This document shows, piece after piece, positions 1 to 64,000 of a DNA stretch of 64,000 nt. Made by a program: the position numbers and the translations under genes. Numbering within the stretch: position 1 is the first letter of the stretch; each line of letters starts with the position of its first letter. Source of the stretch: a virus (Duplodnaviria > Heunggongvirae > Uroviricota > Caudoviricetes); the IMG/VR virus record IMGVR_UViG_3300012956_000001, positions 1-64,000 of that record, one strand, 5' to 3'. Under the pieces are notes generated by a model, which searched no databases, was not told the origin of the DNA, and saw only the letters and a list, made by a program, of their open reading frames with translations.

Positions 1-2877
1 CGAGTAGGCGTAATTCTTACAGCATATGCTACAGAGGCAAACAACCTTACTGGTGATTCTGGTTATGGTGTAAGATTCAACTTGCCGCTTGTTACTATGG
101 GACTAGATTGGTGTTACAACGGACTTACTGTTGCACAACGTCGTCAGGCGGCCACCTGGCTGATGAATCGTGCTGATTGGGTCTGGCCTGAGAGCAATCC
201 AGCAAGACTTAATGCACACGGCACGAACAATCCAGCTATCAATTATTACTGGGGCTTCATGATGACTGGCCCTGCAGCACTGGCTGCACACGGTGATGAT
301 ACAGGCACGGGCACTGTTAGCGGTGCAGATCGTGCAAAATTTCACACAAATCTTGTGTTGTCTAGATGGAACGGCCAAGTAGCTACATTCTTTGCTGGTG
401 AAGGTGCCGGTGGCGCATGGGCAGATGGCACGGGCTATGATAGCGCATGGCGCCTTGGTGCATTTACCGACGCATTCTTTACGGCAGGAAAGCCAACACC
501 ACATCCTTTCCTGGCACAAAGCCTAGCTTGGCGTTTACATTCAACAACGCCGGGAAATCGCTTCAAGGTGCCATTTGGAATGCAGCCTCGTAGTAGCGAT
601 GGCGCATTATTTACGTATGATAGATTGTCAGCACTGTATCCACTAGCATCATCCGGTGCGTCATCTGCACTTCGTGCAAATGTATTTGCATGGCTTGATG
701 CTATCGGCCAAGTACCAGTAAGTGAATTTAATGCAACAGCAACACTAGCAGATGAGTTACTCCGATATACACCAGATTCCTCAGTTTTGCCAACGGCACT
801 TCCAAAGGGATTTGCGGCACTTGGACCGGGCCACGTAGTATATCGTCAAAATTGGACTGATCCAAATGCAACCCTACTAGCATTCACTTCTGGCCCAGTT
901 GCTGATGGTGGTGCTCGTGAAGCCAATGGCTTGATGATTTGGAAGGGTGGTTTCTGGATTTCTGCAAATGCCAACATTTACTCCGCAAGTGGAGTAGAAA
1001 CGGCAAGTTCTAACTACAATACATTAACAGTAGGCGGAGTCGGCCAACAGCTATATGGTGGAAACACAGGCGTTTTCAGTGGACCGATATTCTCTGATAC
1101 TCTTGTACGATTTGGTGGTCAAGCAAAAAACACGTATGGCTATCAAAATCAATGGAACAATACAAGATTTGTTGATGACTACACTCGTGAAGTAGCATAC
1201 TTTCCAACACAAGATATTATTGTAGTTGTAGATCGTGCAACCGCAAAAGTAGCTACAGCTGCAAAAGTATGGCGTTGGCACAGTAAAAATCCTGCCACAA
1301 TTAACGGTAATACCTTCATACTAAGCAATCCGGCAGGCGATCAACGATGCCATGTTACAGTGAATCATCCAACAGCAACGTTGGCCAATGAAACTGTGGC
1401 TCTTGGCGCTGGTGGTCTTTTGAGTTCACATGCCGTATCTGTAACTATGTCAGGTCAAGCAACCGATGTAGTAGTTACTGTATTTCAATGTAATGGACAG
1501 ACACCACTAGTGCCACAAATCACAACTGGCCAACAGGTCACTGTCACTATTGCTGGTCGTACGATAGTGTTACCAGGCGCAGCAGGCGTTGTCGTACCTC
1601 CTACGGAGCCACCGGCAACTCCAACTGTAGCAACAATTACATTGGATACGTTGGTACGATTCCAGACCATCTCCGGGTGGGAGGCGTCAGCACAAAATGG
1701 ACATGACTCTCCGGGCTTCGCTGGCTGGCGTGAATCGGTACTGGACTCCGCAGCGGCTATTGGGTTGACCCGACTTCGTATTGAAGTCAACAGCGGAACT
1801 GAAAATTCAATAGATTACTGGTCCGAGTGGATGGCAGGCAGAATCACGCGTGACGAATGGCGGGCCAAGAGATATACCCCGACGAATGACAACGCAGATC
1901 CTCTCACTGCCAATCCGGCCGGCTTTCACTTTGCCAAGTTAGACAGTCAAATCGATGGCAACGTAACACCGATGCGGGCACGAGTTCCGGGATTGAAGGT
2001 GACGCTCACATATGTCAACTTCGGCGGTAACCAGTTCCACCCACAATCCCCACAAGAGTACGCCGAGTTGTTGCTGGTAACATTCCAGCACATTCAGTCC
2101 AAGTATGGTTGGGTGCCAGATGCTGTTGAAGTAGTTTTGGAACCTGATAACGGCACAGGATGGACCGCAACACAAATGGGTAATGCCATTGTTGCTGCGG
2201 GATCACGCCTGGCGGCAGCAGGATTTACACCAGAATTTATTACACCATCGACTATGAATATGTCAGTAGCAATAACATGGTTAAATGGTATTCTGGCAGT
2301 TCCCGGTGCATCAACTTATGTAAAGGAATTAAGCTATCATAGATATGCTGGTGTAAGTGATGCCTCACTAGTTGCTATTGCCTCTCGTGCAGCACAGTTA
2401 AATATTAGAACTGCCATGTTAGAACATATTGGAAGTGGCGTCGATGCATTGTATGCTGATCTTACCCTAGGCAATGTATCATCATGGCAACAATATACCG
2501 TAGCATTCCCTACAGCGGACGATGGCGCACAATTATTCCCCATCACTAATGGAATAGTGACTACCGGATCAAGAACACATGGATTGCGACCATATTTTAC
2601 AACAGTTCGTCCGGGTGCGATACGTGTAAAAGCAACAAGTGATAATGGAGTAGTACGTACTACTGGATTTATAAACTCAAATGGGTGGCCTGTAGCTGTA
2701 TTGCATACCTCTGCTGCTGGCAATTATGTTGTCCGAGGTGTCCGTCCCGGCCGATATACCACCGTTACGTCCAATCCAGCCACACCATCATTGGGAATTA
2801 TTACTGCTGATGGTACTGGAACCTTGAGATTTTCAACTACCACATCTGGTATTGTCGCTCTTCGGGGTATTCCATAA
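1..2877 (+). CDS. 5'-truncated multidomain carbohydrate-active protein: heparinase II/III-like lyase region, Pro/Thr linker, then clan GH-A (GH30-like) glycoside hydrolase; possible virion depolymerase
   Basis: Frame is open from base 1. Lyase-like motifs NGLMIWKGG, YNTLTVGG, YTREVAYF..IIVVVDR..WRWH; linker PPTEPPATPT; TIM-barrel motifs FQTISGW, LEPDN, ELSYHRY, MLEH. Confidence 0.6.
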   Translation, partial: RVGVILTAYATEANNLTGDSGYGVRFNLPLVTMGLDWCYNGLTVAQRRQAATWLMNRADWVWPESNPARLNAHGTNNPAINYYWGFMMTGPAALAAHGDDTGTGTVSGADRAKFHTNLVLSRWNGQVATFFAGEGAGGAWADGTGYDSAWRLGAFTDAFFTAGKPTPHPFLAQSLAWRLHSTTPGNRFKVPFGMQPRSSDGALFTYDRLSALYPLASSGASSALRANVFAWLDAIGQVPVSEFNATATLADELLRYTPDSSVLPTALPKGFAALGPGHVVYRQNWTDPNATLLAFTSGPVADGGAREANGLMIWKGGFWISANANIYSASGVETASSNYNTLTVGGVGQQLYGGNTGVFSGPIFSDTLVRFGGQAKNTYGYQNQWNNTRFVDDYTREVAYFPTQDIIVVVDRATAKVATAAKVWRWHSKNPATINGNTFILSNPAGDQRCHVTVNHPTATLANETVALGAGGLLSSHAVSVTMSGQATDVVVTVFQCNGQTPLVPQITTGQQVTVTIAGRTIVLPGAAGVVVPPTEPPATPTVATITLDTLVRFQTISGWEASAQNGHDSPGFAGWRESVLDSAAAIGLTRLRIEVNSGTENSIDYWSEWMAGRITRDEWRAKRYTPTNDNADPLTANPAGFHFAKLDSQIDGNVTPMRARVPGLKVTLTYVNFGGNQFHPQSPQEYAELLLVTFQHIQSKYGWVPDAVEVVLEPDNGTGWTATQMGNAIVAAGSRLAAAGFTPEFITPSTMNMSVAITWLNGILAVPGASTYVKELSYHRYAGVSDASLVAIASRAAQLNIRTAMLEHIGSGVDALYADLTLGNVSSWQQYTVAFPTADDGAQLFPITNGIVTTGSRTHGLRPYFTTVRPGAIRVKATSDNGVVRTTGFINSNGWPVAVLHTSAAGNYVVRGVRPGRYTTVTSNPATPSLGIITADGTGTLRFSTTTSGIVALRGIP

Positions 2878-25846: not shown

Positions 25847-27961
25847 ATGACAAATAACAACCCGCACATCGCCGCCCGTATTCAAGAGAAGGTTGACCGC
25901 ATCAAGAATTCCCACTCCGCGTTCTGGATTGGGTCGGATGTGGAAGATTTGACGCGTAAGGTGGAGGTCGGTTCGCTCGACTACCTCGATCGTCTCCGTA
26001 CCGTACAGCGTGCCGTCGGCAATTTCGTGAAGATTGTCACGGGCGAAGAAATCCCGGTATTGTACTCGAGCGGTAAGTCGAGCTATACGACGGGGAAGGA
26101 AGTGGTGCTCTCGGCGGATATTGATCCGACGAAGTTGGACTCTATGGTAGGCGTGGCGTTGCACGAAGGTGCACACTGCCTTCTGTCGGGCCAGTCGTTG
26201 GAGTTTCTGCAGGAGATGCACAAGCGGTTCGATCATATGGTGGGCGGTCATCCGATTGTGGTGCACGCACAGCGGTTGAACATTCCGCTCACCGAAAAGA
26301 ACCTGACGCCTGCGATGGGCACTGGCGGAGATACCGTCATCGGTCACGTGCAGCTCGTGATGAACGTGCTCGAGGATCGGCGCATTGACTTGTGGATGTA
26401 CAAGAACGCGCCGGGGTATCGTCCGTATTACGAGGAAATGTACAACGAGCACTGGCACAGCAAGGATATCGACAAGGCACTGCAAGATCCGAAGTTCCGT
26501 GAGCTGGCGGTCCGCAACTATTTCTTGTTTGTCATTAATCTGACAAATACGAATTTTGACGAGACTGCACTGCCCGGTTTGGCGAAGATCAAGCAGATCG
26601 CCAACCTGACGGAGAAGGGTTTGTCTGCCCGTGGTAATGATGATCCGGGCTTCCGTAATTGGAAGGCCGGACTGCCGACGAACACGAGTCCGGTGTCGGA
26701 TTTGACGAAGTTCCCGAAGCTCTTTGCTGATGCCGTTGCAATTGTGACGGCGATCTATTCGGGTTCGACTATCGTGGAACCGCCGAAGTCCGACAAGGAT
26801 GATGAAGGCGAGGAAGGTGGTGAAGGCGACGGTGAAGGTGAGGGCGATCAGCCGGGCGATTTGCCTAACCTTGATGGCGGCATCCCGCGTAAGGTGTCGC
26901 GGTCGGCGATGGAAAAGGCTCTCGCCAAGCAGATTCAATTCGCCAACGGTCAGTTGACGAAGGAAGAAATTAGTGCCGAAGTGAAGGCACAGCTCGATCA
27001 GCTCGAGCAGACTTCCGCCTCGATTGTGGACGTTGAAGGAGACTTCCTTCCCCGCAACGTGAAGGCGCGAGTGATTGTGTACCGGGATATCACCAAGGAA
27101 ACGGTCAAGAAGGATGCATTTCCGTTTAAGTATAATTCGTATTATAGTCGGAACGGTGCTGCACAGATCAATCCCGACATGACCAAGGCGTTGAAGGATG
27201 GAATTCGGTTGGGTGCCATTCTGGCGAATCGTATCCGCGTGATGCAGGACGAACGTCCGCTCACGTTCAATCGTCAGGAGCACGGCCGTTTGGACAAGCG
27301 CCGCGTGGCGATGTTGGGTACTGGTGCAATGGATGTGTTTTCCTTCACGATTACCGAGCGTCGTAAGCCCGCCAATCTGTGGATGGACGTTGACTTCTCT
27401 GGTTCGATGAACGGTGAGAAGTCGGGAAAGGCGATGACTGTCGCGGTGGCGATTGCCTACGCCGCAGAACAGACCCGGACGTTGAACACCACGATTGCCG
27501 TCCGTGACGGTGGGCATGACTGTGCTCGAGTGGCGATTCTGTATGACTCGCGTAAGCACCAGTTCAACAAGTTGCGTCATATCCTGCCGTATATCGGGGT
27601 TCAGGGTGGTACGCCTGAGTCGCTCGCCTTCGAAGCGATCAAGGATGAAATGATGCAGATGTACAAGGATGAACGGAAGTATTTTATCAATCTGTCGGAC
27701 GGTGAACCGGGTCACGGTTTCACGTACAAGGGTAAGGGTTACTCTTACGGCGGCGAGGAGGCGTACAAGCACACGCGGCGCCTGATGAATGATTTCCGTG
27801 GAATGGGCATTAAGGTATTGTCCTATTACATCGGCGATTCCCGGTACGAGCACGAGGGTTTCAAGAAGATGTACGGGCAGGATGCTCGGTTTATCGACCC
27901 GAAGAACATCGGTCAGATTGCCGGTACGATCAACAAGCTGTTGATGGGTGATGACAAGTAA
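25847..27961 (+). CDS. CobT-like protein: HExxH metallopeptidase-like domain, acidic linker, VWA domain
   Basis: ALHEGAH, NVLEDRRID, GRLDKRR, DVDFSGSM (MIDAS), GGTPE, NLSDGEP. Confidence 0.85.
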   Translation: MTNNNPHIAARIQEKVDRIKNSHSAFWIGSDVEDLTRKVEVGSLDYLDRLRTVQRAVGNFVKIVTGEEIPVLYSSGKSSYTTGKEVVLSADIDPTKLDSMVGVALHEGAHCLLSGQSLEFLQEMHKRFDHMVGGHPIVVHAQRLNIPLTEKNLTPAMGTGGDTVIGHVQLVMNVLEDRRIDLWMYKNAPGYRPYYEEMYNEHWHSKDIDKALQDPKFRELAVRNYFLFVINLTNTNFDETALPGLAKIKQIANLTEKGLSARGNDDPGFRNWKAGLPTNTSPVSDLTKFPKLFADAVAIVTAIYSGSTIVEPPKSDKDDEGEEGGEGDGEGEGDQPGDLPNLDGGIPRKVSRSAMEKALAKQIQFANGQLTKEEISAEVKAQLDQLEQTSASIVDVEGDFLPRNVKARVIVYRDITKETVKKDAFPFKYNSYYSRNGAAQINPDMTKALKDGIRLGAILANRIRVMQDERPLTFNRQEHGRLDKRRVAMLGTGAMDVFSFTITERRKPANLWMDVDFSGSMNGEKSGKAMTVAVAIAYAAEQTRTLNTTIAVRDGGHDCARVAILYDSRKHQFNKLRHILPYIGVQGGTPESLAFEAIKDEMMQMYKDERKYFINLSDGEPGHGFTYKGKGYSYGGEEAYKHTRRLMNDFRGMGIKVLSYYIGDSRYEHEGFKKMYGQDARFIDPKNIGQIAGTINKLLMGDDK

Positions 27962-62528: not shown

Positions 62529-62897
62529 ATGGCAAGTAAAGAATGGATTGCAAAAAACAAAGATAAGATGAAAGAATATCGTCGTATGTGGTATCACAAA
62601 AACAAACAAGAAGAACAGAAAAAGGCCAGACATCGACAAAAATCTAGACGTTCAAATATAAAAGAATGGTTAGATAATTATAAAGCAACATTGAAATGTG
62701 AACGATGTGGATTCTCACATCCAGCAGCATTAGATTTTCATCATAGAGATTCTAGCACAAAAGAATTTACAATAGGATCTCGTAGAACTTTACCATCTAA
62801 TACTAAAACACTAAAAGAAATTGAAAAATGTGAAGTGTTGTGTTCTAATTGCCACAGAATACATCACTATGAAGAACGAAGGGTAGGATCTGTGTGA
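62529..62897 (+). CDS. HNH endonuclease inside the tRNA cluster
   Basis: CERCG..HPAALDFHH, KCEVLCSNCHRIHH. Confidence 0.9.
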   Translation: MASKEWIAKNKDKMKEYRRMWYHKNKQEEQKKARHRQKSRRSNIKEWLDNYKATLKCERCGFSHPAALDFHHRDSSTKEFTIGSRRTLPSNTKTLKEIEKCEVLCSNCHRIHHYEERRVGSV

Positions 62898-62948
62898 TCA
62901 GACCGAACTCCAAATCCGGTCAGCTCAGTTCGATTCTGAGCTACCCTG
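62880..62948 (+). tRNA. tRNA-Trp(CCA) with short D arm
   Basis: AGGGTAG/CTACCCT acceptor; loop CTCCAAA. Confidence 0.7.
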
Positions 62949-62955
62949 TATAATT

Positions 62956-63030
62956 GTCTCTCTGGTGTAGCGGGATTCGCACGACTGTCTGAAAAGCAGT
63001 AGGCTAACGGTTCGACTCCGTTGGGAGACG
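62956..63030 (+). tRNA. tRNA-Phe(GAA)
   Basis: Loop CTGAAAA. Confidence 0.88.
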
Positions 63031-63068
63031 CTTGACAAAATAGAAAATAGGGTATATATTGTAATCAT

Positions 63069-63140
63069 GCCTCCGTAGTGAAATGGATATAACTACGGTC
63101 TTCGGAACCGTCATTGGGGGTTCGAATCCCTCCGGGGGCA
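63069..63140 (+). tRNA. tRNA-Arg(TCG)
   Basis: ACGGT-CTTCGGA-ACCGT. Confidence 0.9.
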
Positions 63141-63146
63141 CTAATT

Positions 63147-63234
63147 GGAAGGTCGGTAGAGACGGTGTGCTGCACCAGTTTGCTAAACTGGCTTACGGGA
63201 AACTGTAATAAGGGTTCGAATCCCTTGCCTTCCG
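63147..63234 (+). tRNA. tRNA-Ser(GCT)
   Basis: Loop TTGCTAA; long variable arm. Confidence 0.88.
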
Positions 63235-63372
63235 TAGATATTATCACACGAGGATGTGGCAAAGCGTTACGCACGGACCCGACGCTGACGTAATTGAATT
63301 TAAACATTAGTATGTCCTAATGTACTTTCAAAGAGGCGCGTGGCAATATCGGGACAAGTAGTGTGATAGTTT

Positions 63373-63461
63373 GGAAACCATCCGGCTGGATGAGGAGCTT
63401 GTTTCGAAAACAAGTAATACAATATTAATTTGTATTGTGGGTTCAAGTCCCACGGTTTCCG
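63373..63461 (+). tRNA. tRNA-Ser(CGA)
   Basis: CTTGT-TTCGAAA-ACAAG; long variable arm. Confidence 0.82.
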
Positions 63462-63473
63462 CTGTAAAATTAT

Positions 63474-63555
63474 GGTGAGTATGCTCGAGCGGACGAGCAC
63501 CGGTCTGTAAAACCGACGACTTATGTCACGGCAGGTTCGAACCCTGCACTCACCA
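63474..63555 (+). tRNA. tRNA-Tyr(GTA)
   Basis: Loop CTGTAAA; variable arm. Confidence 0.88.
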
Positions 63556-63634
63556 CTTGTAAAGCTCATTGATAATAGATGTATGGATGTTAGCGCCCGA
63601 TCATTCCGAGGCGTGTATACAAATATCGGAATTT

Positions 63635-63706
63635 GCCTTGGTCGTTCAATGGATAGGACGATGGTCTACGAAACCATAAATGCAAGTTCGACTCTTGCCT
63701 AGGGCA
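63635..63706 (+). tRNA. tRNA-Arg(ACG)
   Basis: ATGGT-CTACGAA-ACCAT. Confidence 0.9.
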
Positions 63707-63710
63707 TATA

Positions 63711-63784
63711 GAGCAGCGACGTTGGTTCGAATCCAACCGCATGGCGTCCGCGCCGCGTGTAGCATAGTGGTTAGTGCACTGCTC
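63711..63784 (+). tRNA. circularly permuted tRNA-like gene (3' half precedes 5' half)
   Basis: Order: GAGCAG, T arm, 3' acceptor strand, linker, 5' acceptor strand, D arm, CTGCTC. Confidence 0.7.
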
Positions 63785-63794
63785 GTTGAGTCTC

Positions 63795-63867
63795 ACCCCT
63801 ATGGGCGTAATTGGCAACGCTGCTGGCTTTTAACCAGCTGATCACAGTTCGAGTCTGTGTGGGGGTA
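63795..63867 (+). tRNA. tRNA-Lys(TTT)
   Basis: GCTGG-CTTTTAA-CCAGC. Confidence 0.9.
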
Positions 63868-63920
63868 TATTAAGACGATCTACTTAACTAGTTATAGATA
63901 AACTGTAACTGGGAGTATCA

Positions 63921-64000
63921 ATGAACAGTAAAAGTAAGTTAGTGATGGAATCACAACGCAGAAAGAAACTCTTTGCAGTTGAACAATTTGGCGGAAAATG
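63921..64000 (+). CDS. 3'-truncated ORF, probably another HNH endonuclease
   Basis: GGGAG RBS; RRKKLFAVEQFGGK resembles KAIKYLGGKC of the 60976 protein. Confidence 0.5.
   Translation, partial: MNSKSKLVMESQRRKKLFAVEQFGGK

What the first reader, a model, noticed from the sequence alone, without database searches (positions are those of the whole stretch)
63711..63784. Circularly permuted tRNA gene in a phage tRNA operon
Seen, in order: 3' anticodon-stem strand GAGCAG, variable CGAC, T arm GTTGG-TTCGAAT-CCAAC, 3' acceptor strand CGCATGG, a GGCG-TCCG-CGCC hairpin capping the acceptor end, 5' acceptor strand CCGCGTG, TA, D arm GCAT-AGTGGTTA-GTGC, A, and 5' anticodon strand CTGCTC. This is a full cloverleaf opened at the anticodon loop, placed tightly between tRNA-Arg and tRNA-Lys. 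The anticodon cannot be read unambiguously (flanks are ..TATAG and CGTTG..). Established: permuted tRNAs are known in Cyanidioschyzon merolae and Thermofilum, matured by a splicing endonuclease that bacteria lack; I know of no phage example. Inference: either a ligase-dependent maturation route through a circular intermediate, or a sealed-acceptor tRNA decoy against anticodon nucleases or tRNA-sensing defences. With five other aberrant tRNA-like genes in this window, this suggests a tRNA-mimic system.
Basis: partly seen in the sequence, partly recalled or inferred. Interest (0 to 1): 0.85.

Follow-up and report, generated by a model that had tools for sequence, protein, structure and literature searches.

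The report
Back-to-front tRNA look-alike in phage
Between two ordinary tRNA genes of a 218-kb phage lies a small RNA gene shaped like a tRNA with its acceptor end sealed and its anticodon end open. This design is already known from bacterial and phage Y RNAs, but here it lacks the usual protein-binding stem and the partner protein Ro60.

Summary
Window 63711-63784 (+) holds a 6-bp closing helix, a T arm, a 9-level acceptor helix capped by a UCCG loop, and a D arm. The two halves fit each other far better than halves of unrelated tRNAs do (1 of 3422 control chimeras). An independent assembly of the probable source sample reproduces the sequence.

It is not a new kind of permuted tRNA gene. [quoted passage not shown] I found the same module next to Ro60 (TROVE) genes in other phages. 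I also found it in a Ro60-less jumbo phage, G053, that is distantly related to this one.

What differs here:
- There is no Ro60-binding stem or handle; the neighbouring tRNAs lie 4 nt and 10 nt away.
- The complete genome has no Ro60 gene.
- No RNA ligase (RtcB, Rnl2) or splicing endonuclease was detected.

The element cannot decode. The most likely reading is a non-decoding tRNA-elbow mimic cut out of the tRNA operon transcript. A functionless leftover remains a serious rival, because a near-identical relative has other sequence in place of this block.

This scan has reported YrlA-like permuted tRNA mimics in many other phages before.

The parts
63032..63060 (+). Promoter-like site (TTGACA-17-TATATT) heading the tRNA run that contains the element
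   Evidence: 11 of 12 consensus matches. No terminator-like site on the + strand before the element. This is a consensus match only.
63634..63707 (+). tRNA-Arg(ACG), the upstream neighbour. Its 3' processing would set the element's 5' end.
   Evidence: ARAGORN. Rfam RF00005 57.5 bits at 63635-63706.
63707..63710 (+). 4-nt 5' tail, TATA
   Evidence: It does not pair with the 3' tail.
63711..63716 (+). Closing helix, 5' strand GAGCAG (tRNA positions 38-43)
   Evidence: 6/6 pairs with 63779-84. Two pairs covary with the G050 homologue.
63717..63720 (+). Variable region CGAC. Its last C is placed to pair with G15 (Levitt pair).
63721..63737 (+). T arm GTTGG-TTCGAAT-CCAAC
   Evidence: Identical to the T arm in the G050 and L238 Y-RNA modules.
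63738..63759 (+). Capped acceptor helix: 7 acceptor levels (one A.C mismatch, two G.U pairs), then 2 further pairs, then a UCCG loop (63747-50)
   Evidence: Helix 3 of alignment A5 covaries across 10 modules.
63760..63778 (+). U8 A9, then D arm GCAT-AGTGGTTA-GTGC, then A26
   Evidence: 19/19 identical to the D arm of the G050 normal-order tRNA-like RNA.
63779..63784 (+). Closing helix, 3' strand CTGCTC (tRNA positions 27-32)
63785..63794 (+). 10-nt 3' tail GTTGAGTCTC. Its first 5 nt may be the remnant of an anticodon-like loop (C-G-TTG-A-G).
   Evidence: The comparison with the C-TTG-G loop of G050 is only suggestive.
63795..63867 (+). tRNA-Lys(UUU), the downstream neighbour. RNase P cleavage at its 5' end would set the element's 3' end.
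   Evidence: ARAGORN. RF00005 56.3 bits.

Best explanation
The stretch encodes a non-decoding, circularly permuted tRNA-shaped RNA module. Its order is closing helix, T arm, loop-capped acceptor helix, D arm. [quoted passage not shown] Here it is reduced to the bare module: there is no Ro60-binding stem or handle, and the phage has no Ro60 gene.

Inferred steps:
1. It is transcribed as part of the tRNA operon from the promoter-like site at 63032-63060.
2. It is released as an RNA of about 87 nt (63708-63794) by the 3'-end processing of tRNA-Arg and the RNase P cut at the 5' end of tRNA-Lys.
3. It folds into a tRNA L-shape. All the usual tertiary-contact nucleotides are present: U8, A14, G15/C48, G18 G19, U54 U55 C56, A58, G53-C61.
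4. It works by presenting a tRNA elbow to a tRNA-binding factor of the host or the phage, as a mimic, competitor or tether.

It cannot read codons. It cannot be charged unless RNase P opens the cap, as happens with Mycobacterium smegmatis YrlA.

Shown here: the anatomy, the fact that the two halves form one unit, the recurrence and covariation of the module class, the absence of Ro60 and of a handle, and that the stretch is not a misassembly.
Inferred: transcription, processing, folding in vivo, and any function.
For: Anatomy and fold.

One unit rather than two unrelated halves: 1 of 3422 control chimeras matches it, and there are 0 hits in reversed DNA.

Same order of parts as the Rfam YrlA consensus.

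The literature describes YrlA as a permuted tRNA with a closed acceptor stem and a tRNA-like crystal structure. YrlA occurs in phages near Ro60.

Homologous or analogous modules elsewhere:
- G050 scores 41.5 bits, L238 35.8 bits and L240 28.2 bits with a model built from this element alone. Each lies beside a TROVE gene.
- The G053 module scores 44 bits. G053 is a complete 210.6-kb phage without TROVE, and its MoxR protein is 49% identical to this phage's.

Across 10 modules, 97% of pair cells are paired and 18 of 23 pairs show double changes. Slid controls give about 40%.

The D arm (19/19) and the variable region plus T arm (20/20) are identical to a Ro60-adjacent tRNA-like RNA of the unrelated phage G050. 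Two anticodon-stem pairs differ by fully compensatory changes.

The cap continues the acceptor helix and closes it with a tetraloop, as in the other modules.

A promoter-like site lies upstream. The phage has its own CCA-adding enzyme.
Against: - Only one copy is known. No close relative carrying it was found in any collection.
- In a lake-water run, a contig near-identical on both flanks has 188 other letters in place of 63597-63860, which holds tRNA-Arg, the element and tRNA-Lys. The element is therefore dispensable or recent.
- There are no expression data.
- It lacks the Ro60-binding motif, the handle and a Ro60 gene, so the known mechanism of YrlA cannot apply.
- The acceptor helix is imperfect (an A.C mismatch and two G.U pairs), whereas the other modules have clean helices.
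- The Rfam YrlA score of 18.1 bits is no better than that of ordinary tRNA-tRNA junctions in this genome.
- The folding energy is not exceptional.
Confidence: 0.5

Rival explanations
1. It is a functionless leftover. Either it is a fragment of a Y-like RNA that lost its handle, or it is the product of a tandem duplication and deletions of a tRNA-like gene. In both cases it would be carried along in a recombination-prone tRNA array next to homing (HNH) endonuclease genes. It may be transcribed and cut out, but it does nothing.
For: - It is present in one genome only.
- The nearest relative has a different 188-nt block in its place, with flanks 99.7% and 95% identical.
- The slot between tRNA-Arg(ACG) and tRNA-Lys(UUU) holds a small ORF in relative G024.
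- HNH genes flank the block (ORF from 63922).
- There is no handle and no Ro60.
- The acceptor helix is imperfect.
- The 3' tail starts with what could be the old anticodon-like loop, as a permutation by rearrangement would predict.
Against: - All tertiary-contact nucleotides and all four helices are intact.
- The cap extends the acceptor helix into a tetraloop hairpin, as in functional modules.
- The D and T arms are identical to a Ro60-adjacent RNA of an unrelated phage, which suggests constraint on those arms.
- No parent tRNA or second copy exists in the genome.
- Relative G053 also carries a bare module right after a tRNA.
Confidence: 0.32
2. It is a processed two-piece tRNA-like RNA. RNase P cuts between 63752 and 63753, the 3' side is trimmed, and the phage CCA-adding enzyme adds CCA, as reported for M. 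smegmatis YrlA. The product would be a split, possibly chargeable tRNA-like molecule that resembles a tRNA nicked in the anticodon loop.
For: - It has a 7-level acceptor plus a 5-bp T stem, which is the RNase P measuring unit. M. smegmatis YrlA, with a 7-bp acceptor, is cut by RNase P and receives CCA in vivo.
- The phage encodes a CCA-adding enzyme.
- Two-piece (permuted) tmRNAs set a bacterial precedent (own knowledge; the Rfam family is listed).
Against: - The helix runs on for two more pairs past position +1/73 into a tetraloop, with no single-stranded 3' end, which makes it a poor RNase P substrate.
- Most YrlA RNAs are not cleaved.
- The acceptor has an A.C mismatch.
- There are no data.
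Confidence: 0.1
3. It is a true circularly permuted tRNA gene. The ends are joined, rebuilding a C-G-UUG-A-G loop by a break at 37/38. The cap is then removed to give a decoding tRNA-Gln-like molecule.
For: - Every nucleotide of a 79-nt cloverleaf is present exactly once if the 3' tail GTTGA is counted. ARAGORN then reads tRNA-Gln(UUG).
- Position 37/38 is the classical break and intron site in archaeal and algal tRNAs (own knowledge).
Against: - G33 in place of the near-universal U33.
- The predicted ends leave 4 and 5 extra nucleotides, and there is no bulge-helix-bulge motif.
- No splicing endonuclease, RtcB or Rnl2 in the genome.
- The phage already has six ARAGORN-called tRNA-Gln genes (four UUG, one of them embedded in a larger RNA per an untested scan note, and two CUG).
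- The homologue in G050 has a 5-nt loop and so is itself non-decoding.
Confidence: 0.03
4. It is a chance junction of two unrelated tRNA fragments, or an assembly artefact.
For: tRNA-tRNA junctions give similar YrlA-model scores.
Against: - Neither half belongs to a complete tRNA.
- The halves are mutually complementary in two helices.
- An independent assembler gives the identical sequence.
Confidence: 0.02

Closest known systems
YrlA (Y RNA-like A; Rfam RF02553). Sources: Chen et al. 2014, PMC4201824; Wang et al. 2018, bioRxiv 10.1101/312249.
   Same: The order of parts is the same: stem, T arm, closed acceptor-like hairpin, D arm, stem. The tRNA tertiary nucleotides are retained. It sits among tRNA genes. 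It occurs in phages.
   Different: There is no Ro60-binding stem and no GNCGAA motif. No rsr/TROVE gene lies next to it or anywhere in the genome. The conserved YrlA T-stem and D-stem sequences are not shared. The Rfam score is 18 bits against a gathering score of 69. The element is only 74-87 nt and is bounded by tRNAs.
Phage Y RNAs beside Ro60 found here: G050 (IMGVR_UViG_3300017650_000001), L238 and L240. This includes a Yrn1-type normal-order tRNA-like RNA at L097:1062-1228(-).
   Same: The T arm is identical to the G050 and L238 modules. The D arm and T arm are identical to the G050 normal-order RNA, with a covarying anticodon-type stem. All of them lie in tRNA arrays.
   Different: Those RNAs are about 135-170 nt, with outer stems and conserved handle motifs, and they lie next to a TROVE gene. 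The element here has neither.
Bare or composite YrlA-like modules of the Ro60-less jumbo phage G053 (L210:2066-2144 and 1869-1994, minus strand)
   Same: G053 belongs to the same broad phage group (MoxR 49% identical). It has no TROVE. Its first module starts 16 nt after a tRNA gene. HNH genes lie nearby.
   Different: The arm sequences differ. The 5' half of the G053 module can also pair with a second, downstream T arm and acceptor strand. The neighbours are different, so it is not syntenic.
Circularly permuted tRNA genes of Cyanidioschyzon merolae, some green algae and Thermofilum pendens (Soma 2007, Maruyama 2010, Chan 2011, as cited)
   Same: The 3' half comes before the 5' half, and a short linker joins the acceptor ends.
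   Different: Those genes carry a bulge-helix-bulge motif, are circularised by the splicing endonuclease and a ligase, and become decoding tRNAs. None of these features is present here.
Phage T4 stable RNAs species 1 and 2 (rnaC, rnaD) in the T4 tRNA cluster (own knowledge)
   Same: They are small non-decoding RNAs co-transcribed with phage tRNAs and released by tRNA-processing enzymes. Their function is still unknown.
   Different: They have a different fold and are not permuted cloverleaves.
Two-piece (circularly permuted) tmRNA genes (own knowledge; the Rfam family tmRNA_permuted is listed)
   Same: A bacterial precedent for a gene in which the 3' acceptor and T-arm part comes before the 5' acceptor strand.
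   Different: tmRNA carries a tag reading frame and pseudoknots. No such match was found here.

Membership tests
Canonical tRNA (RF00005) | A contiguous cloverleaf with a 7-nt anticodon loop and a free acceptor end | tested here: not met
   ARAGORN makes no call at 63708-63794. RF00005 matches only the T arm, at 11.4 bits.
YrlA (RF02553) | Order of parts: T arm, then closed acceptor-like hairpin, then D arm, enclosed by a stem | tested here: met
   Alignment to the model consensus. Fold.
YrlA (RF02553) | Score at or above Rfam's gathering threshold (69 bits) | tested here: not met
   18.1 bits. tRNA junctions in the same genome score 19.5-21.9 bits.
YrlA (RF02553) | A Ro60-binding stem with the GNCGAAN0-1G motif | tested here: not met
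   The flanks are the ends of tRNA-Arg and tRNA-Lys, and no such motif is present.
YrlA (RF02553) | Encoded near an rsr/Ro60 (TROVE) gene | tested here: not met
   No PF05731 match in the complete genome. No hit with three phage Ro60 proteins or an HMM built from them. The VWA protein at 25847-27961 is CobT-like.
YrlA (RF02553) | The conserved YrlA T-stem and D-stem sequences (GCGGG/CCCGC; GCUC/GAGC) | tested here: not met
   The stems here are GUUGG/CCAAC and GCAU/GUGC.
Permuted tRNA genes (C. merolae / T. pendens type) | The 3' half lies upstream of the 5' half, joined by a linker | tested here: met
Permuted tRNA genes (C. merolae / T. pendens type) | A bulge-helix-bulge motif at the termini and a splicing endonuclease | tested here: not met
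   The tails TATA and GTTGAGTCTC do not pair. No PF01974 match in the genome. The host could not be tested.
Permuted tRNA genes (C. merolae / T. pendens type) | Joining the ends gives a canonical 7-nt anticodon loop with U33 | tested here: not met
   The predicted ends give a 14-16-nt loop. The best case is C-G-UUG-A-G with G33.
Permuted tRNA genes (C. merolae / T. pendens type) | An RNA ligase is available for circularisation | tested here: inconclusive
   No RtcB or Rnl2 in the phage. The Rnl1 search had no positive control. The host ligase is unknown.
Phage Y-like RNAs with a stem-plus-ACAGCAA handle (uncatalogued; a lead from earlier scan notes) | An outer stem followed by an ACAGCAA-type motif around the module | tested here: not met
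   No ACAGC within 900 nt of the element. Such motifs do flank modules in L136, L147, L230 and L231.
Permuted tmRNA | A match to the permuted tmRNA models, or a tag reading frame | tested here: not met
   No such hit at E <= 10. The phage's tmRNA lies at 81658-81995.

The most novel reading that the evidence does not exclude
The element is more than a passive mimic. RNase P and the phage's own CCA-adding enzyme would open the capped acceptor, as in M. smegmatis YrlA, or the ends would be joined at position 37/38. Either route would yield a two-piece or re-circularised tRNA-Gln-like molecule made from a permuted gene. That would be the first permuted tRNA maturation pathway in a bacterial virus, working without Ro60.
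Probability: 0.08. Interest if true: 0.85.

Novelty: new variant of a known kind. Interest (0 to 1): 0.38.

Why it matters
YrlA-type tRNA mimics are thought to act by tethering Ro60 to an unknown factor that binds the tRNA elbow. A bare module in complete phage genomes that lack Ro60 (this phage, and relative G053) would show that the tRNA-like domain can be used on its own. It would also give a minimal 74-87-nt bait for finding that unknown factor.

The element also resembles the intermediate proposed in the model that Y RNAs arose from dimeric tRNA transcripts.

If it is only a leftover, it still shows how permuted tRNA-like modules move and decay in phage tRNA arrays next to homing endonuclease genes.

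Tried and rejected
**Searches for close relatives**
- GenBank phages, near and distant modes: no match.
- Exact-pattern scans of viral contigs with the element and with the tRNA-Tyr flank: nothing.
- A scan with the downstream AGTCGTG motif: only chance hits in coding DNA, with no tRNAs.
- The neighbouring 107-aa protein: no relatives.
- Metagenome scan with the flank: nothing.
- Metagenome scan with T arm plus D arm: one hit, which is an ordinary tRNA-Ile/tRNA-Ile junction.
- No RNA holder was listed among the sequencing runs. Contigs of runs X3 and X4 gave no cover over the element.

**Model searches**
- The Rfam YrlA hit is not specific, because tRNA-tRNA junctions score as well.
- My single-sequence model R1 found only junctions in 49 MoxR relatives.
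- The broader model R2 is swamped by junctions scoring up to about 40 bits.
- The apparent 'extra 3' half' in L091 is a tmRNA 3' end followed by tRNA-Ala.
- The second R1 hit in this genome (66414-66487, 19.6 bits) has four mismatched pairs in the closing stem and one in the D stem, and its D-arm part overlaps the tRNA-Thr that ARAGORN calls at 66456-66534; I read it as a junction-type hit rather than a second module.

**Search for a hidden partner**
- The 704-aa VWA protein next to MoxR is CobT-like, not Ro60-like.
- The only gene shared between the G053 module locus and this genome is an HNH endonuclease.

**Search for a parent tRNA**
- No tRNA of this genome resembles the halves.
- The D-arm sequence occurs in tRNAs of several identities elsewhere, so it does not assign an identity.

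**Handle motifs**
- The G050 handle motifs and ACAGCAA are absent near the element.

Full report
**1. What is there**

The window is the first 64 kb of a complete 217,729-bp virus record with direct terminal repeats. The record carries 59 tRNA genes and a tmRNA gene. The finding lies in a dense tRNA run on the + strand, between tRNA-Arg(ACG) at 63634-63707 and tRNA-Lys(UUU) at 63795-63867.

The 74 nt fold, as the minimum-free-energy and centroid structure, into a four-way junction:
- a 6-bp closing helix (63711-16 with 63779-84);
- a T arm (63721-37);
- an acceptor-type helix of seven levels, continued by two more pairs and closed by a UCCG loop (63738-59);
- a D arm (63762-77).

The folding energy is not unusual (z about -1), as is normal for tRNAs. 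The nucleotides that make the tertiary contacts of a tRNA are all present when the sequence is numbered as a cloverleaf: U8, A14, G15 with C48, G18 G19, U54 U55 C56, A58, G53-C61.

**2. Is it more than chance or an artefact?**

With the two halves swapped and any 5-nt filler, ARAGORN calls a 72-nt tRNA. That test is lenient, because 7% of chimeras between halves of different tRNAs of this genome are also called. The mutual fit of the halves is not lenient: 6/7 acceptor pairs and 6/6 closing pairs are reached by only 1 of 3422 such chimeras.

A 29.5-kb contig made by a different assembler from the probable source run (activated sludge) is identical over 62900-64000. So the element is real and is one unit. 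It is not two unrelated tRNA fragments.

**3. What kind of thing it is**

Rfam gives a weak global match to YrlA, the tRNA-like Y RNA (18.1 bits; gathering score 69). The score alone means little, because junctions of adjacent normal tRNAs in the same genome score 19.5-21.9 bits. Chen et al. already noted this pitfall.

The order of parts, however, is exactly that of the YrlA consensus. [quoted passage not shown] They were reported near Ro60 genes in more than 250 bacteria and phages. A subset of jumbo phages is known to carry TROVE proteins with a tRNA-like partner.

**4. Related sequences**

No close relative carrying the element was found (see the field on what was tried). A covariance model built from the element alone (R1) gave these results:
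- A 41.5-bit full-length hit in the tRNA array of an unrelated 103.6-kb phage, G050. There the module sits inside an RNA of about 140 nt with an outer stem and shared handle motifs. G050 encodes a TROVE/Ro60 protein directly downstream of its cluster of such RNAs.
- Two further Ro60 phages have a module just upstream of the Ro60 gene: L238 at 35.8 bits and L240 at 28.2 bits.
- A pattern scan of viral contigs with filtering showed that about 11 of 124 matches are such modules. Most sit on larger scaffolds, several with an ACAGCAA-type motif.
- Ten modules aligned together keep 97% of pair cells paired, with double changes in 18 of 23 pairs. Slid controls give about 40%. The alignment is fitted to the model, so this leans towards the structure.

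The D arm (19/19) and the variable region plus T arm (20/20) of the element are identical to a normal-order tRNA-like RNA beside the Ro60 gene of G050. That RNA has a 5-nt 'anticodon' loop and is clamped by a 24-bp stem (z = -7). Two pairs of the anticodon-type stem differ from the element's by fully compensatory changes. The two phages otherwise share only one tRNA, at 75% identity. This points to common descent from, or common constraint with, phage Y-RNA tRNA-like domains.

**5. What is different here**

- The element has no handle. Only 4 nt separate it from tRNA-Arg and 10 nt from tRNA-Lys. It has no Ro60-binding motif, no ACAGCAA and no G050-type handle motifs.
- The complete genome has no TROVE gene by Pfam, by tblastn with three phage Ro60 proteins, or by an HMM built from them. 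The VWA protein next to MoxR is CobT-like.
- It is not alone in this. Two complete jumbo phage records with modules also lack TROVE (G053, G054).
- G053 has a MoxR protein 49% identical to this phage's, so it is a distant member of the same group. Its first module starts 16 nt after a tRNA-His and matches the YrlA model locally at 36 bits. A second, full-length YrlA-like RNA follows.
- Among 50 records of this group, only G053 had true modules.

**6. Can it become a tRNA?**

Processing of the neighbours would leave tails of 4 and 10 nt, so joining the ends would give a 14-16-nt loop. If the first five tail bases (GTTGA) are counted as the old loop, every cloverleaf position is present once and the loop reads C-G-UUG-A-G, but with G33. 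There is no bulge-helix-bulge motif. The genome has no splicing endonuclease, RtcB or Rnl2; the Rnl1 search was inconclusive. The phage does encode a CCA-adding enzyme.

A decoding role is therefore very unlikely. Opening of the cap by RNase P with CCA addition, as in M. smegmatis YrlA, is possible but disfavoured, because the helix runs on past the cleavage site.

**7. Function or leftover?**

A strong promoter-like site at 63032-63060, with no terminator-like site before the element, suggests co-transcription with the tRNAs. Release by tRNA end-processing would follow. Both steps are inferences.

Against function:
- In a lake-water metagenome, a contig that is near-identical on both sides (1 mismatch and 1 gap over 63208-63596; 7 mismatches over 63861-64000) has 188 other letters in place of 63597-63860.
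- The Arg(ACG)-Lys(UUU) slot holds a small ORF in relative G024.
- HNH endonuclease genes flank the block.
- The acceptor helix is imperfect.

For function:
- The intact tertiary set.
- The tetraloop cap, designed like that of the other modules.
- The conserved arms shared with a Ro60-associated RNA.
- A second bare module in G053.

I put a functional non-decoding elbow mimic at about 0.5 and a functionless leftover at about 0.3.

**8. Verdict**

The headline interpretation, a novel permuted tRNA gene in a phage, is not supported. The element is a stripped-down, Ro60-less variant of the known YrlA-type tRNA mimic, and this scan has already reported that class in many other phages. It is of moderate interest as a minimal, possibly Ro60-independent form. 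It rests on a single occurrence with no expression data.

Noticed in passing
L097:1062-1228 (minus strand; IMGVR_UViG_3300017650_000001 = G050): A 167-nt RNA with a normal-order tRNA-like core: D arm, a 5-bp stem with a 5-nt CTTGG loop, and T arm. The core is clamped by a 24-bp outer stem in place of the acceptor (MFE -68.4 kcal/mol, z = -7.07). It lies just upstream of a TROVE/Ro60 gene and has a Yrn1-like orientation. Its D and T arms are identical to those of the window element.
   Followed up: partly
L210:2020-2145 (minus strand; G053, a 210.6-kb record): One 5' half (acceptor strand plus D arm) can pair with an upstream 3' half, giving a permuted module (YrlA model 36 bits). It can also pair with a downstream T arm and acceptor strand (RF00005 41 bits, with 20 nt in place of the anticodon arm). 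This could be an alternative-pairing device or an evolutionary intermediate. A second full-length YrlA-like RNA follows at 1869-1994, then an HNH gene.
   Followed up: partly
window 63597-63860: In a lake-water run, a contig near-identical on both flanks replaces this block (tRNA-Arg, the element, tRNA-Lys) with 188 other letters. This is a cassette-like variable slot next to an HNH gene. The replacing letters could not be read.
   Followed up: partly
window 63236-63372: A 137-nt spacer between the two tRNA-Ser genes whose ends pair (ATTATCACAC with GTGTGATAGT, 10 bp). It is almost unchanged in the lake and freshwater relatives. The folding energy is not exceptional (z = -1.2). It may be another small RNA.
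   Followed up: partly
window 62880-62947: A tRNA-like stretch directly after the HNH ORF. It gives a weak match to the tRNA-Sec model (22.6 bits) and is not called by ARAGORN.
   Followed up: no
G000:C1 whole genome (tRNA list); 77592-77667; 81658-81995: ARAGORN finds no tRNA-Trp among the 59 tRNAs. It does find a CUA-anticodon (amber-reading) tRNA, labelled Pyl, and a tmRNA with tag AEYALPLAA.
   Followed up: no
L096:1608-1859 (G024): The same tRNA-Arg(ACG) ... tRNA-Lys(UUU) neighbourhood holds a small ORF of about 65 aa instead of an RNA module.
   Followed up: no
L184:2761-3122 (G054, a 233-kb record without TROVE): Three tandem permuted tRNA-like modules (33-35 bits with R1), each on a repeated scaffold beginning ACAGAGCCAATGCTTATTTCTT.
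   Followed up: no
G000:C1:105741-107321: A phage-encoded CCA-adding enzyme (PolyA_pol family, 75 bits). This fits with tRNA genes that lack an encoded CCA.
   Followed up: no
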